Below, piece by piece: positions 9,268-17,336 of a DNA stretch of 64,000 bases (positions within the stretch are counted from its first letter, which is position 1; the number at the start of each line of letters is the position of its first letter). Made by a program: the position numbers and the translations under genes. The stretch is taken from the NCBI GenBank assembly GCA_005223125.1, contig NJBH01000014.1, forward strand, positions 1 to 64,000, in the 5' to 3' direction. Source of the DNA: Promethearchaeota archaeon Loki_b32 (GTDB taxonomy: Archaea; Asgardarchaeota; Lokiarchaeia; Sigyniarchaeales; SOKP01). The notes under the pieces were generated by a model. It did no database searches and was not told the origin of the DNA. It worked only from the letters and a program-made list of their open reading frames with translations.

Positions 9268-9909
9268 ATGGCTATAAAATTAGGAGAAAATTCATGGATT
9301 TTAATAGGACTAATTTTTTTTGAAATATTGTTTATTATCGTACCTGCCTTGATATCCAGTAAGTTGGAAAAGATGACTTTTACAGATGTAATCAAAGATA
9401 TGGGATTTCAAAGGAATAAGAATCTATTCATCAAAGTAACATCTGGAATAAGTTTTGGTATTTTATTCTTCTTTTTTGGCAATTATATTATTATATTTTT
9501 TAGAGATATTATTATTAGAAATTTGTTGGGTTATAAATTCGTTCAATATGGACAAGAAGGAGTTATTAGTACAGAACCAATTCAACCTAATCTTTTTCAA
9601 CTGATAATCTTTATAATCTTAATTCTAATTATTATTGGACCTTGTGAAGAAGCATTTTTTAGAGGATTTCTTATAAAAAAATTCCAGAAAAAATTGAAAT
9701 TGGCATATTCGGTTATTATCTCAAGTATTTGCTTTACTTTTTATCATGTACCTCCATTTATAGTACCAATAGCTACTATTGTAACATTTTTTGGCTATTA
9801 TTTTACATTTGGACTAATCTTATCTTTCATATTTATCTATTTCGATTATTCTTTAATCCCTTGCTCAATTGCTCATTCTTGCTTTAACATTCTTATCTTA
9901 TTAATATAA
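9268..9909 (+). CDS. CPBP (Abi/type II CAAX) intramembrane metalloprotease
   Basis: EEAFFRG, FTFYH, IAHSCFN motifs. Confidence 0.9.
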   Translation: MAIKLGENSWILIGLIFFEILFIIVPALISSKLEKMTFTDVIKDMGFQRNKNLFIKVTSGISFGILFFFFGNYIIIFFRDIIIRNLLGYKFVQYGQEGVISTEPIQPNLFQLIIFIILILIIIGPCEEAFFRGFLIKKFQKKLKLAYSVIISSICFTFYHVPPFIVPIATIVTFFGYYFTFGLILSFIFIYFDYSLIPCSIAHSCFNILILLI

Positions 9910-10059
9910 TTTTCCTTTTTTGAAAATATTAAATATAAAACAGATAAATATTATTTATAATTAAATCGAAATAAATATGTAGGAACAATATTTCATCATA
10001 CCATTTTTAGAAGTAATATTCTGAATTGTTTAAACCAACCACTATGTAGGTTAAGGAAA

Positions 10060-10584
10060 TTGACGGATTACGATTATACATTTAAAATTATGATGCTAGG
10101 CGATGCATCTGTAGGAAAAACATCCCTTACTATGAGATATATCTCTGGATACTTCATGGAAGACCTCAAATTAACTATTGGGGTAGATTTTTATAGTAAA
10201 ACAACCTCCTTCAAGGATAAAAAAGTTAAATTACAAATTTGGGATTTCGGTGGAGAAGAAAGATTTCGTTTTCTACTTTCTCAGTATAGTAAAGGCGCAA
10301 ATGGAGCATTTTTCTTATATGATATTACTAATCAAACATCATTAGATCACTTACCTGATTGGACACAGGTAATAAGAGAACATGCAGGGGATATTCCTAT
10401 AATGTTGATTGGCTCAAAAGTGGATTTGAATGAATTCCGAGCAGTTCTTCGGGATGATGGAATTTTAGCCGCAAAAAAATACAGTCTATCTTCTTTTGTA
10501 GAACTTTCTTCTAAAACAGGAGAAAATGTAGAAAAGGCTTTCAATGTTATGACAGAAGTTCTTTTCGAAAAGTATTCAAGCTAA
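10060..10584 (+). CDS. Rab-like small GTPase (TTG start)
   Basis: GDASVGKT, TIGVDF, WDFGGEERFR, SKVD, ELSSKTGENV; no C-terminal prenylation Cys. Confidence 0.92.
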   Translation: MTDYDYTFKIMMLGDASVGKTSLTMRYISGYFMEDLKLTIGVDFYSKTTSFKDKKVKLQIWDFGGEERFRFLLSQYSKGANGAFFLYDITNQTSLDHLPDWTQVIREHAGDIPIMLIGSKVDLNEFRAVLRDDGILAAKKYSLSSFVELSSKTGENVEKAFNVMTEVLFEKYSS

Positions 10585-10675
10585 TAAATAAATATTATTT
10601 TGGTAATTATCATTTTCCACATTTAAGTAAACTTTAAATGTCCCATCTCACTTATTTTTAAGTACATAATTATAG

Positions 10676-11056
10676 ATGAATTTTATGATTGAAGTTCTTA
10701 ATAAAAAAGAGAAATTAGAAGGTTTCATTGATGGGAAAAAATATATGAATAAAAAAAAGAAAATAATGGGCCTTTTGGAAAACAATGAATTTAAAGATAA
10801 TTCAAGTTATACTCTTCTGGTTCTTAAAGATAATGGGGCTATTACTTGGAGTGACGGGCAACAAAAAGGTTATCTTAAAGATGGTAAAATTTATTCATCT
10901 CTTAACGATAGACACATCTTTGAATTTAAAAAAGAAAAAGGTATGATTTTAGATTCTGATGGGAATACAGTTCTATATCTAAAAGGTGATCTTGACTCTC
11001 TTGAAGATGATGATTTTTTTGGGATTACAGCGCAATTTTTAGAATTATTTGCTTAG
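10676..11056 (+). CDS. Hypothetical protein (beta-rich)
   Basis: 126-aa ORF with normal composition; no recognised motif. Confidence 0.6.
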   Translation: MNFMIEVLNKKEKLEGFIDGKKYMNKKKKIMGLLENNEFKDNSSYTLLVLKDNGAITWSDGQQKGYLKDGKIYSSLNDRHIFEFKKEKGMILDSDGNTVLYLKGDLDSLEDDDFFGITAQFLELFA

Positions 11057-11166: not shown

Positions 11167-11700
11167 TTGACTGAAATAAACAATAAAGAACCCCCAAGAC
11201 CTAAAGGGTTACAAATACATAGTAAAGCACCCCAAATAGATACAACAGATATATATGATAATCCCATTAAATTAGATGAACTATTAGAGTCCTTTAATGG
11301 AGTTTTAATAGATTTTTTTCGAGGAAATTGGTGAAGTCACTGCAAAAAACATTTGAAACTTTTAACTGAAAATATTAATGAATTTGAAAAAAGAAATATT
11401 AAACTTATCTCCATTGCCAGCGATAGTGTCAGACTTCTAAGGAAATTCAAAGAAGAAAATGAGTTTGGTATCGATATGATTTCTGATAGAGGTGCTAAAA
11501 TAGCGAAAGAATATGATGTTTACTGGTTTGCTCCAGGTGGAGGTAAAGATTACAAAATAAAACAAGCTGTACCAAGTAAATTTCTCATCAATAAAGATCG
11601 GAAAATTATCTGGAAATATATAGGAAAAGATAAAACTGATAGACCTTCAATAGAAATGATGACTACCATTATTGATAATCAAATAATTACTCCCAAATAA
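11167..11700 (+). CDS. AhpC/TSA peroxiredoxin-like selenoprotein, UxxC (Sec at TGA 11332-11334), 177 aa
   Basis: AAGGAG at 11155-11160, then TTG; frame reads ...KAPQIDTTDIYDNPIKL...VLIDFFRGNW-TGA-SHCKKHLK... and is continuous with ORF 11353..11700; SECIS-like element follows the stop. Confidence 0.9.
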
Positions 11701-11764
11701 GAATGACGTGAGTGTAAAAAAATGAGACGCTCAAGGACAAACCTCGTGAGGGTTTTGGGATAAT
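11686..11764 (+). promoter_or_regulatory. SECIS-like 3' UTR element, copy 1
   Basis: ATGA 11703-06; stem TGAGTGT(11709-15)/ACGCTCA(11727-33); A-rich loop; GGAC 11735-38; extra hairpin AAACCT/GGGTTT; basal TCCCA/TGGGA. Confidence 0.85.
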
Positions 11765-11912
11765 CTTTCTTTTTATTTTTTTATTAAAAACTATATAACC
11801 AAATTTAAAATGGAAATTCCGCATTTTCGAAATACATATGTTTAAAACATCTAATTTTATTAATGAGTTTAAGAAATATTGCATTGGAATTGAAAACGAG
11901 GTAATATACACG

Positions 11913-12440
11913 ATGGGTTTAAATAAAGAAGAAACACAGAGACCTAGGGGATTAGGACTTCATATAAAGGCACCAATGATAAACACAATTGACATTTATG
12001 GCAATACAATTAATTTAGCTAATCTCCTTAAAGAATATAAAGGCGTAATCGTTGATTTCTTTCGAGGCACTTGGTGAACTTATTGAAAAGAACACCTTGA
12101 GCATGAAAAAAAGCATTTTCATGAGTTTGAACAACGAAAAATTAAGATTCTCTCTATAGCCAGTGATACGGTTGGACTATTAAAGAAATTTAAAGAAGAA
12201 AACAATTTTCCTGTAGATATGATTTCTGATCGTGGCGCTAAAATTGCAAAAGACTATAATGTCTATTGGTTCGCTGAAGGCTGGGGAAAACTAAAAGTAA
12301 AACAAGCGGTACCTAGTAAATTTCTCCTCAATAAAAATGGTGAAATCATCTGGAAGTATGTGGGACGAGATAAAACTGATCGACCTTCTGTGAGTGCGTT
12401 AATATTCCTTATTGATAAATACTTAATAAATCCCAAATAA
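11913..12440 (+). CDS. AhpC/TSA peroxiredoxin-like selenoprotein, UxxU (TGA 12075-77 and 12084-86), 175 aa
   Basis: GAGGT at 11898-11902, then ATG; MGLNKEETQRPRGL...IVDFFRGTW-TGA-TY-TGA-KEHLE... continues without other stops into ORF 12219..12440; full-length paralog of the upstream gene. Confidence 0.88.
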
Positions 12441-12502
12441 GAATGATTTGAGTGTGGAAAAATGAGACACTCAAGGACTACCTTGTGAGGGTAATGGGAT
12501 TT
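12428..12502 (+). promoter_or_regulatory. SECIS-like 3' UTR element, copy 2
   Basis: ATGA 12443-46; stem TTGAGTGT(12448-55)/ACACTCAA(12467-74); A-rich loop; GGAC 12475-78; hairpin TACCT/GGGTA; basal AAATCCCA/TGGGATTT; T-tract follows. Confidence 0.85.
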
Positions 12503-14045: not shown

Positions 14046-15344
14046 ATGTCGAAAATTAAATTTGACCATGATTTTTGGGATATGCTGAAGTATAAAAGAA
14101 GTAGTAATAATATTAGATGGTCTTCAGCAATCCTTAAAGAAGAAGTAATGAAAGAAGTGGATTCAATTAGAAATAACATAAATAGGAGAGACGATTTCTA
14201 AATGGATGATCACGTAACTGGCACAATGTATTTAGATTCTAACGAATTGGAACGACAACCAGCTCATACTTTTCTTACTAAATGGACGTTCAATAACAAA
14301 AGCTGTGGAACTGGGAAGACTAAGAAAGACAGTGACAATATTAAATATTTTGTCAAGAAAGGTATGAAAATTTTGGTATGTTTATCTAACCATAGACTCA
14401 TTGAGGAATTTATTGAACGGATGGAATATAAATGTGAATATATCCATTTAAAAGGCAAATTACAACCTCTAATGTGCAATAAAGAAAACCCTAATCCAGA
14501 TGCTTTTTTAAATGGGGGGTGCAATAATTGTAAGGAGATTTATGGTGTTTGGGATGAAGAAAAGAATGATTTCATGCTGTTAGGTTATAGTCCTCTTGAT
14601 TTTCTAAAAGATATTGAAACTTTTATATTCAACTGCGCGACAACAAAGCTGAGTTTAGCCGAAAACACATTCGGAAGGAATTTTGATGCCATTATAAAAG
14701 ACAAGGAAGTTATGGAAAATCCCATATATATTTTAGATGATGTAATGACAATGACTAAAACAGAAGTAGCAATTCCTTTATTGGTAGAAATTTCGGATTT
14801 ATATAACATCCCGAAAGATAATACTACAGTGATCTACTGTAAAAAGAATTTTGAAGTGGAAATAAGCCAGTTATTACCAGAAATTCACACTGGACATTAT
14901 GGAGACTGTAGGGGAAGCAATAGATTTGAAGAATGTAAGAATGTAGTATTATTTGGTAGATTTGCTCTTAGAGATTCGGTGAAATGGTTGCTCAGCTTAT
15001 ATGGACTAACACAAGAAGAGATTAAAAGCATGGAAGAAGCGGAAGAAATACAAGCATTACATCGAGTTAGACCTCTCTTAGATAAAGAAGTTAGGATCTT
15101 TTTATTTACGAATACTTTGATGAATAAAATACCTAATGCTACGGAAGTATTTAACAAGAGACATCTAGATAAATGTTTAGAAATTTTAAATAGAAAAGAA
15201 GAACTGGAAGGATTAAATAAAACGGATATATATAATAAAATAAAAGGAGATCATAATGATACTAAGCGTTCATTAGAGATCCTAGAACATTTCAATAAAA
15301 TTAAACCTATATTTGGTTACGGAGCTAAATTGACATTTGTTTAG
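14046..15344 (+). pseudogene. SF2 helicase-like replication protein of a mobile element, interrupted
   Basis: CGTGKT (motif I), LVCLSNHRLIEE (Ia), CATT (III), HYGDCRGSNRF (V), QALHRVR (VI); no clear motif II; in-frame 51-codon ORF 14046-14201 ends in TAA right before ATG 14202. Confidence 0.5.
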
Positions 15345-15700
15345 CTCTTTCAAAATCAAATATGTTTTTTTTCTTTATATATTATAGTAAATCAACAGAT
15401 TTGGTTTAAAAGGCTTCTAATACTTATAGAAAGCAAAAGAAGAATTTTCACATCAATTCACAGACCACCTCGGTTCCCCCATCTCTTAATAAGAATGCTT
15501 TTTGAGGGGAAAAACGATGAAGGGGGGTATGTTTAGATTACATTAATCTTACTTTGGTGTGCCCTAAAATAAGCGGATATAATAATATGATTCTTTCTAA
15601 ACCAAGTAATATAATATAGAAGGAGTTTAACAAAAACTAAATATTAGTTTAAACGGATTCTTTTTTATCAGTTATCTAGATAAGAATATAAAATTAACTT

Positions 15701-16201
15701 TTAATGAGTACTTTCCTCATATTTTTTTAGGTCAATAAAGAGAATAGAGCTGTTCTTCCGATCTCGAAACCATTCAAATCCCATGTTTACCTTTTCTAAG
15801 TAATAGGATTTCATATCTAAAGTAGTTTCCACTAGCAGTAAACGACAAGCAATGATGTTGCTTGCTTCTAATGATTTTTCTAAAGCGATTTTTATCAATG
15901 CTATACCAAGATTTTTATGTTTATAGTTATTATCTACACCTAAGCGTCCGAGAAGTACTATTGGTACTTTATCAATTCCAAATATCCTTGCATCTCCTGT
16001 ATTTAATTGAGAAGCGGAAAGTGTTAAAAATGCAATTACCTTATTAGAATCTTTCACACAAAAAGTGTATGTTTTTGAAAGCTTTCGCTTTTGATTGAGA
16101 AGAGCTAGAGTATTCAAAAAAGAGTTAATAACCTGATCTCCACAGTCGAATGGTTCAATAATTACATCTCCATCTAGTTCTTTAAAAATTAAATCGGTCA
16201 A
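15701..16201 (-). CDS. GNAT acetyltransferase toxin (TacT/AtaT-like)
   Basis: FDCGDQVINSFL, VIAFLTLSA, VPIVLLGRLGVD..YKHKNLG, YY...GF. Confidence 0.8.
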   Translation of the reverse strand: MTDLIFKELDGDVIIEPFDCGDQVINSFLNTLALLNQKRKLSKTYTFCVKDSNKVIAFLTLSASQLNTGDARIFGIDKVPIVLLGRLGVDNNYKHKNLGIALIKIALEKSLEASNIIACRLLLVETTLDMKSYYLEKVNMGFEWFRDRKNSSILFIDLKKYEESTH

Positions 16202-16215
16202 TTGAAAAATCCCTT

Positions 16216-16461
16216 TTATAATTTCTCAATTTCTTCTAAAGATATTACATATTCCTTCTCTTCCAATTTTTTATAGAATTGGTGAGAGGATTTAAAAAAA
16301 GAACGAGTTTTTTCATCAATTTCTCTATCTTCAAGTTTTTTTTCAAGATCCTTAATCTCTTGCTCGGTTAATATGATCTCTTCAGAATCATCAAAGAAGA
16401 AATTCTCTTCAGATATTTTTTCTTCCTTTCTAACTTCTTTTTCTTTTGGCGTTGTCATCAT
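16216..16461 (-). CDS. Putative antitoxin of the GNAT toxin
   Basis: Small acidic ORF directly upstream of the toxin; IILTEQE...L segment resembles the C-terminal half of DUF1778 antitoxins. Confidence 0.55.
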   Translation of the reverse strand: MMTTPKEKEVRKEEKISEENFFFDDSEEIILTEQEIKDLEKKLEDREIDEKTRSFFKSSHQFYKKLEEKEYVISLEEIEKL

Positions 16462-16517
16462 TATAAAAATGGAATTATTCCTATAAATGATTTGTTATTA
16501 TAACTAAATTGCATCTA

Positions 16518-17336
16518 TCATTCTAATATATTATTGTACGGATTCCACTTGTCATAAAGCTGAATGTAGTCGTGATAATTGAGCTTAACATGGCAATTGA
16601 AATTCACATCGCTGACTTTATGGCATAATAAGATTTTCCGATCCTCTTTTGCGCATCCCATTCTTTTCCGCAGGGTATTCAATGTTCTTCTGAAAGTATG
16701 ACATGAAATCCACTTTTCAATATTCAAACGGATAACACAATTCCTTATATAATGATTAATGGTACGGAGTGAATATCGTTTCTTCTGAATGGACAGAAAT
16801 AATGCGTTAGAATCCGTTTCTTTGACCGTCCTTTCCTTCAAATATATGGTTAAGTGCATTGCTAAACCTTCTGAAAAGTAATAAATCTTTCTTCCTGTCT
16901 TTCCTTCCGTTTCAACATATCGTTTCTTTATGTTTAAATTTCTATAATCAAGATTAATAAGCTCTCCGATTCTCATCCCAGTTTCTGCTAACAATCTAAA
17001 TAGAAGGTAATAGTTGTAATTATTATTATACATGTAATCCAAGATCTTTTTTACTTCTTCCTTAGTCATTACAACATCCTTATTAGAATCCGGTTTTTTA
17101 TGAATCGGCTTCCATTGGATACTATATCTGGGGATGATAATGACAAGATCATCGTAATATTCCATGATGAATTGTAAAAAACTGCGGAAGATCATCCACT
17201 TGTTTTGTTTGGTTTGTAGGGAGATGGTATCCAAGTGATTTAAGTAATCAAAATAATCAATAATATCCCGCTTTGTTAAGTTAAAGATGTGTCCGTTATA
17301 TCCAAAAAATTTAGAGCGGAAAAATATTGGAGACAA
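16518..17336 (-). pseudogene. Tyrosine recombinase/integrase, 5'-truncated, probably inactive
   Basis: ETGMRIGEL, GKTG, CHTFRR, LLCH; His (CAT, 16590-92) at the expected catalytic Tyr position. Confidence 0.75.

What the first reader, a model, noticed from the sequence alone, without database searches (positions are those of the whole stretch)
11167..12502. Tandem hidden selenoproteins: peroxiredoxin-like pair with UxxC and double-Sec UxxU motifs
Seen: two adjacent paralogs, each broken by TGA exactly at the thioredoxin-fold redox motif: FFRGNW-TGA-SH-C (Sec56) and FFRGTW-TGA-TY-TGA (Sec55 and Sec58). Similarity between the paralogs continues on both sides of the TGAs with no other stop or frameshift. 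The second TGA in gene 2 aligns with the resolving Cys (TGC) of gene 1. Established: AhpC/TSA-like proteins carry CxxC at this position; Asgard archaea encode Sec machinery; UxxU is rare and is known mainly from selenoprotein L, where it forms a diselenide. Inference: an archaeal UxxU redox protein next to its UxxC sister, capturing a Cys/Sec exchange after duplication. Standard gene callers would break this into three fragments.
Basis: partly seen in the sequence, partly recalled or inferred. Interest (0 to 1): 0.93.

Follow-up and report, generated by a model that had tools for sequence, protein, structure and literature searches.

The report
Known Loki selenoprotein pair (PrxL)
These are two real neighbouring genes of an Asgard archaeon that read a stop codon as selenocysteine (one once, one twice in its redox site), but this protein family, its double-selenium form and these very two proteins have already been published.

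Summary
Observation confirmed. Gene 1 (11167-11700, UxxC) and gene 2 (11913-12440, UxxU) are intact Prx-like (PrxL, PF00578) selenoprotein genes of a Lokiarchaeia genome. The genome holds SelD, SepSecS, EFSec, a probable PSTK and a two-intron tRNA-Sec. Among 97 homologs the first motif codon is always TGA and the fourth only TGA, TGC or TGT; dN/dS downstream is about 0.04-0.15. It is not new. Mariotti 2016 (PMC4989117) described Loki PrxL.1 (UxxU) and PrxL.2 (UxxC), proposed the diselenide and drew the SelL comparison. Huang 2024 (PMC11227280) lists these exact proteins in its supplement. The scan also noted such genes in other genomes. A small addition: the second site switched between Cys and Sec repeatedly (10 changes, at least 6 forced; one UxxU origin rejected), and relatives keep both copies, either one alone, or a hybrid. 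That points to largely interchangeable duplicates. They are not true peroxiredoxins (catalytic Pro/Thr/Arg not kept). Sec insertion and substrate are untested.

The parts
11167..11700 (+). prxL gene 1, 177 aa, UxxC (Sec56, Cys59); TTG start, GGAG about 8 nt upstream
   Evidence: (PF00578 E 2e-22); same sequence by eye as Lokiarchaeia_GCA_005223125_U in the supplement of PMC11227280
11332..11334 (+). TGA = Sec56 of gene 1
   Evidence: TGA in 97/97 homologs; an independent-run contig spans it with 0 differences (X1 11227-11543)
11691..11760 (+). lokiSECIS of gene 1: AUGA core 11703-11706, 9-bp stem (8 paired), 11-nt A-rich loop 11716-11726, GA 11736-11737; lower stem formed partly by the last codons, plus a small extra hairpin
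11913..12440 (+). prxL gene 2, 175 aa, UxxU (Sec55, Sec58), no Cys
   Evidence: (PF00578 E 3e-21); same sequence by eye as Lokiarchaeia_GCA_005223125_U_2, annotated there from ATG 11838
12075..12086 (+). TGA-xx-TGA = Sec55 and Sec58 of gene 2
   Evidence: both TGAs kept in all 9 orthologs tested
12428..12502 (+). lokiSECIS of gene 2: AUGA core 12443-12446, 9-bp stem, 11-nt A-rich loop 12456-12466, GA 12476-12477; lower stem overlaps the last codons

Best explanation
Two paralogous Lokiarchaeia PrxL selenoprotein genes from a tandem duplication inside one genus. Each UGA is read as Sec by tRNA-Sec/EFSec under the gene's own 3'-UTR lokiSECIS; one SECIS serves both UGAs of gene 2 (genomic signals shown, insertion itself inferred). 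The products are Bcp-shaped thioredoxin-fold oxidoreductases whose only redox residues are the two in the box (shown). Most likely the first Sec is the nucleophile that reduces a substrate disulfide or peroxide and the second residue resolves it, giving a selenenylsulfide in gene 1 and a diselenide in gene 2, which a cellular reductant then recycles (inferred from thioredoxin and SelL chemistry; substrate and reductant not identified). The two copies do broadly the same job, with the second position tuning the redox potential (inferred). About 0.97 for real selenoproteins, about 0.7 for box-based Trx-type chemistry; the confidence given is for the identification plus this general mechanism.
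For: TGA only at the two redox-box positions, alternating only with Cys codons. dN/dS downstream of the TGAs 0.04-0.12 (gene 2) and 0.05-0.15 (gene 1) against orthologs. SECIS pattern in 90 of 99 homologs; all 9 stem pairs show two-sided changes, 0/500 shuffles reach the covariation score, and slid controls fall to 25-53% paired against 90%. A genome-wide scan with the pattern gave 18 hits, including all three prxL genes and other genes with TGA in Cys-type motifs. Machinery: two selD with in-frame TGA, SepSecS, PSTK-like E 6e-40 below cut-off, EFSec, tRNA-Sec(UCA) after removing two introns. AlphaFold model pLDDT 86.5, best match Bcp4 TM 0.82. Pro134 invariant. Published description of the same family and SECIS shape. 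At this locus relatives have both copies (7 genomes), UxxU only, UxxC only (most) or a hybrid.
Against: No direct evidence of Sec insertion or activity in this organism; the family has never been characterised experimentally (as of the 2016 paper). PSTK is below the family cut-off. The tRNA-Sec splice is my inference from comparison with uninterrupted relatives. Redundancy is inferred from MAGs, where tandem copies can be collapsed or fused by assembly.
Confidence: 0.85

Rival explanations
1. Same genes, but they act as direct peroxidases of the Bcp/PrxQ type: the Sec at the second position (the peroxidatic position of Prx), or the first Sec, reduces H2O2 or alkyl peroxides without needing the Prx triad because selenolate is reactive enough.
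For: All top fold and sequence matches are Bcp/PrxQ/AhpE peroxiredoxins; Sec58 aligns with the peroxidatic Cys of A. pernix PrxQ; an invariant Arg51 lies next to the box.
Against: PxxxT/SxxC is replaced by RGxW-U-xx-U/C and the catalytic Arg of PrxQ has no clear counterpart. The invariant Sec is the first position, not the second. NCBIfam peroxiredoxin models score far under cut-off (37-47 bits against 140; 23-25 against 270).
Confidence: 0.3
2. The two neighbours are functionally specialised partners (a relay or heterodimer), or the UxxU copy has a new role such as selenium storage or sensing of selenium supply.
For: The pair persists in the same order in 7 genomes with saturating dS; gene 2 has its own conserved changes (FAEGWGK loop, EEL/EHL after the box). 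Separate UxxC+UxxU tandem pairs occur in another genus (L062, L082).
Against: Either copy alone occupies the locus in many genomes, and a hybrid exists. Each gene has its own SECIS and they are 212 nt apart.
Confidence: 0.2
3. The TGAs are real stops (pseudogenes or assembly errors).
For: TGA is an ordinary stop in this genome (277 of 2004 long ORFs).
Against: Same TGAs in about 90 genomes, purifying selection downstream, covarying SECIS, Sec machinery.
Confidence: 0.01
4. UGA is reassigned genome-wide, or is read as Cys at one of the two sites (as proposed for tRNA-ReC in some bacteria with UXXU hydrogenases, PMC13582414).
For: Position 4 alternates between TGA and Cys codons; tRNA-ReC is enriched in bacterial UXXU genomes.
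Against: Median read-through past terminal TGAs is only 7 codons, so there is no general reassignment. The only convincing UCA-anticodon tRNA found is a typical archaeal tRNA-Sec beside SepSecS.
Confidence: 0.04

Closest known systems
Lokiarchaeota PrxL.1 (UxxU) and PrxL.2 (UxxC), Mariotti et al. 2016, PMC4989117
   Same: Same family, same two motif types, no Cys outside the box, same lokiSECIS (9-bp stem, 11-nt loop), same diselenide proposal.
   Different: Here the UxxU and UxxC genes are adjacent, 60% identical sisters. The UxxU proteins of GCA_000986845 listed in the 2024 supplement (FHRGAW-U-YY-U) resemble a separate UxxU clade of my tree, so gene 2's second Sec is probably an independent gain.
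Asgard prxL selenoproteins, Huang, Xiao and Zhang 2024, PMC11227280
   Same: Supplement file 79 contains these two proteins and the third paralog on contig C31 (GCA_005223125_U, _U_2, _U_3) and many other double-Sec sequences; prxL is in 43% of Sec-using Asgard genomes.
   Different: The main text has no hit for 'UxxU' or 'two Sec'; gene 2 is given a 25-residue longer N-terminus there.
Bacterial Prx-like thiol:disulfide oxidoreductase selenoproteins (PF00578; UxxC, UxxU)
   Same: Same Pfam family and both motifs are catalogued; UxxU sequences were also seen in a GOS Prx-like family.
   Different: Bacteria use an in-frame SECIS and SelB (established knowledge); here the SECIS is 3'-UTR and eukaryote-like.
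Selenoprotein L (SELENOL) and SelL-related redox proteins (NF040769)
   Same: UxxU in a thioredoxin-fold redox box, one SECIS for two close UGAs; best NCBIfam hit.
   Different: 49-55 bits against a cut-off of 120, and only about 100 of 173 positions matched in the best stretch; not a member.
Bcp/PrxQ peroxiredoxins (3HJP, 2CX3)
   Same: Same fold, TM 0.74-0.82.
   Different: 21-24% identity; no PxxxT/SxxC motif, no clear catalytic Arg.

Membership tests
Asgard PrxL selenoproteins | AhpC/TSA (PF00578) domain above gathering score | tested here: met
   79.6 and 76.3 bits against 26
Asgard PrxL selenoproteins | Redox box UxxC or UxxU, no other Cys | tested here: met
Asgard PrxL selenoproteins | 3' lokiSECIS: AUGA, 9-bp stem, 11-nt A-rich loop, GA | tested here: met
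Asgard PrxL selenoproteins | Host with tRNA-Sec, SelD, PSTK, SepSecS, EFSec | tested here: met
   (PSTK below cut-off; tRNA-Sec needs two introns removed)
Asgard PrxL selenoproteins | Listed in the published set | tested here: met
   compared by eye
Asgard PrxL selenoproteins | Sec actually inserted in the protein | not testable with these tools
   needs 75Se labelling or MS
True peroxiredoxins (Bcp/PrxQ, AhpC) | PxxxT/SxxC motif | tested here: not met
   RGTW-U-TY-U aligns to PAAFSPVC
True peroxiredoxins (Bcp/PrxQ, AhpC) | Conserved catalytic Arg before the last strands | tested here: not met
   KQAVP aligns to KRAV with a gap; Gln131 and Pro134 invariant; local alignment is approximate
True peroxiredoxins (Bcp/PrxQ, AhpC) | Prx fold | tested here: met
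   TM 0.82 to 3HJP
Selenoprotein L / NF040769 | Score above curated cut-off | tested here: not met
   49.4 and 54.7 against 120
Selenoprotein L / NF040769 | UxxU motif | tested here: met
   gene 2 only
Selenoprotein L / NF040769 | Diselenide bond in vivo | not testable with these tools
   needs MS or a structure of the Sec protein

The most novel reading that the evidence does not exclude
In Lokiarchaeia PrxL the second redox-box residue has switched between Cys and Sec many times on an invariant first Sec, because a 3'-UTR SECIS makes the switch a single-base change (TGC/TGT to TGA). This tandem pair, with its single-copy and hybrid relatives, is a natural matched set for asking what a diselenide does that a selenenylsulfide does not. 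I did not find this repeated switching described in the papers read.
Probability: 0.55. Interest if true: 0.35.

Novelty: already known. Interest (0 to 1): 0.15.

Why it matters
As a discovery it adds little: family, double-Sec motif, SECIS and the sequences themselves are published. It is a correct rescue of genes that standard callers fragment. The useful remainder is practical: a 60%-identical UxxC/UxxU pair is a good substrate for the first biochemistry of PrxL and of a prokaryotic diselenide redox box, and for testing how one eukaryote-like SECIS decodes two UGAs three codons apart (SBP2 was not detected in Lokiarchaeota). The two-intron tRNA-Sec is a warning that Sec-trait surveys can miss such genomes.

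Tried and rejected
Rfam RF01852 on the own genome found no tRNA-Sec over cut-off; default ARAGORN found none and a lowered threshold gave only noise. The gene was found by blastn with relatives' tRNA-Sec, so the blank was a false negative caused by introns. Sequencing runs: no RNA holder listed. Laid contigs confirm the gene-1 TGA region (0 differences); contigs from two other studies cover both gene-2 TGAs with 9-10 differences each, but the difference table was cut, so they are not counted as direct confirmation. The careful IQ-TREE run did not finish; the quick tree was used, and the AU test was run on 63 rows after removing 8 long-branch or distant rows and thinning the UxxC cluster. Redox positions were masked in both trees. 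There is no outgroup, so gain versus loss is read only from nesting. The sigma-70 promoter/terminator scan is not suited to archaea and gave chance levels. The SelL paper (PMC1955791) is not held. No complex prediction was run, because no binding is claimed. Rejected: pseudogene, genome-wide UGA reassignment, membership in true Prx, membership in SelL.

Full report
OBSERVATION. Reading TGA through gives a 177-aa frame at 11167-11700 with one TGA (11332, residue 56) three codons before TGC (Cys59), and a 175-aa frame at 11913-12440 with TGA at 12075 and 12084 (residues 55 and 58) and no Cys. The two are about 60% identical in protein and 69% in DNA. A third paralog (UxxC) lies on contig C31. 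An in-frame ATG at 11838 would add 25 residues to gene 2, but several orthologs have in-frame stops just before the 11913-equivalent Met, so 11913 is the likely start.

IS UGA SEC HERE? A search of 161 genomes of the class found homologs in 92. From 90 fetched loci I extracted 99 distinct homologs. In the 97 with a readable motif, position 1 is TGA in all, and position 4 is TGA, TGT or TGC. Downstream of the TGAs, Nei-Gojobori dN/dS against orthologs is 0.04-0.12 for gene 2 and 0.05-0.15 for gene 1, which excludes pseudogenes. TGA is otherwise an ordinary stop in this genome (277 of 2004 long ORFs; median read-through 7 codons), which excludes general reassignment.

SECIS. Five bases after each stop codon begins an AUGA, then a 9-bp stem, an 11-nt A-rich loop and GA (11703 and 12443). 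This is the shape published for the lokiSECIS. The pattern is present behind 90 of 99 homologs. On 50 aligned copies all nine stem pairs show two-sided changes, 89.8% of cells pair (25-53% when slid), and no shuffle of 500 reaches the covariation score (related sequences inflate the shuffle test, and the stem was defined from these sequences, but the compensatory changes are many). A lower stem is formed partly by the last codons of each gene. Each gene has its own element, so one SECIS must serve both UGAs of gene 2.

MACHINERY. The genome encodes two selD genes, each with an in-frame TGA, SepSecS, a PSTK-like gene (E 6e-40, under cut-off) and EFSec. tRNA-Sec was missed by Rfam and ARAGORN but lies on C57 at 28655-28503, just upstream of SepSecS, interrupted by two inserts of about 30 nt in the D-loop and T-loop. 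Removing them gives a 93-nt tRNA-SeC(UCA) nearly identical to the uninterrupted genes of relatives. The T-loop intron is known.

PROTEIN. Both proteins are PF00578. The AlphaFold model of gene 2 (pLDDT 86.5) matches Bcp/PrxQ peroxiredoxins best (TM 0.82 to 3HJP). They lack the peroxiredoxin signature: the PxxxT/SxxC motif is replaced by RGxW-U-xx-U/C, with the second residue at the peroxidatic position, and KQAVP stands where PrxQ has its catalytic Arg. Peroxiredoxin and SelL-related models all score well below cut-off. They are therefore Prx-like, not Prx and not SelL. The invariant first Sec and the variable Cys/Sec second residue fit thioredoxin-type chemistry: first Sec attacks, second residue resolves, giving Se-S in gene 1 and Se-Se in gene 2. 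This step is inference. Direct peroxidase activity remains a real rival; neither has been tested for this family.

EVOLUTION. With the redox positions masked, the tree needs 10 changes between UxxC and UxxU, at least 6 forced by strongly supported branches, and a single UxxU clade is rejected (p-AU 8e-16 on a 63-row subset). Gene 2 belongs to a 13-member UxxU clade (SH-aLRT 98) nested in a 47-member group whose other 34 members are UxxC (99), so a Cys-to-Sec gain around a duplication within this genus is the simplest reading; it is not rooted with an outgroup. The locus (CPBP protease, Rab-like GTPase, optional beta-flower protein, prxL) is conserved in the genus. Seven genomes keep both copies in this order, five keep only the UxxU copy directly after the GTPase, most keep only UxxC, and one has a hybrid with a gene-1 5' half and a gene-2 3' half. 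That suggests largely interchangeable copies rather than obligate partners, with the caveat that these are MAGs.

PRIOR ART. Mariotti et al. 2016 (PMC4989117) reported two Loki Prx-like genes, PrxL.2 with one Sec and PrxL.1 with both Cys replaced by Sec, found further one- and two-Sec homologs, proposed a diselenide and cited SelL as the only other case. Huang et al. 2024 (PMC11227280) found prxL in 43% of Sec-using Asgard genomes, and their supplementary sequence file contains these two proteins and the C31 paralog under GCA_005223125, matching by eye. Reviews list 'UxxC, UxxU' for Prx-like PF00578 selenoproteins. Earlier scan notes flagged the same family in other genomes.

VERDICT. Real, correctly read, already known. 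What may be unreported is minor: the repeated switching of the second site, the interchangeable tandem copies, and the second intron in tRNA-Sec. Interest 0.15.

Noticed in passing
G000:C57:28503-28655 (-), inside L035: tRNA-Sec carries two non-canonical introns (D-loop about 28638-28609, T-loop about 28551-28522) and is invisible to Rfam RF01852 and default ARAGORN. The papers read report only a T-loop intron for Loki tRNA-Sec.
   Followed up: partly
L008:1501-2028 (-), genome G073: Hybrid prxL: 5' half 83-98% identical to gene 1 (UxxC), 3' half 80-95% identical to gene 2. Recombination between the tandem copies, or an assembly chimera.
   Followed up: partly
window 11688-11700 and 12428-12440: The last codons (PK-stop) form the 5' side of the SECIS lower stem; in homologs that stop earlier the same UCCC/AUCC letters remain in the 3' UTR, so these residues may be kept for RNA structure.
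   Followed up: partly
window 9268-11056: Conserved upstream neighbours across the genus: CPBP-type membrane protease (by sequence appearance), Rab-like small GTPase and an optional beta-flower-like protein (PF21785 below cut-off). No functional link to prxL was tested.
   Followed up: partly
G000:C70:14682 (+) and C64:96008 (+): lokiSECIS-like hairpins with no obvious Sec-containing frame upstream; the C70 one has the full AUGA, stem, A-loop, GA and the extra hairpin. Possibly a short unrecognised selenoprotein or an orphan element.
   Followed up: partly
G000:C16:9975-12157: Two tandem selD genes, each with an in-frame TGA; multiple selD copies are reported for Loki/Thor genomes.
   Followed up: partly
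L062 (G152) and L082 (G151): Separate tandem UxxC + UxxU prxL pairs in another genus, on different branches from the window's pair.
   Followed up: partly
window 14046-17336: Integrase-like gene (16518-17336, -), GNAT-like gene with a small upstream partner (15701-16461, -) and a helicase-fragment-like ORF (14202-15344): looks like a small mobile island. Judged from the translations only.
   Followed up: no
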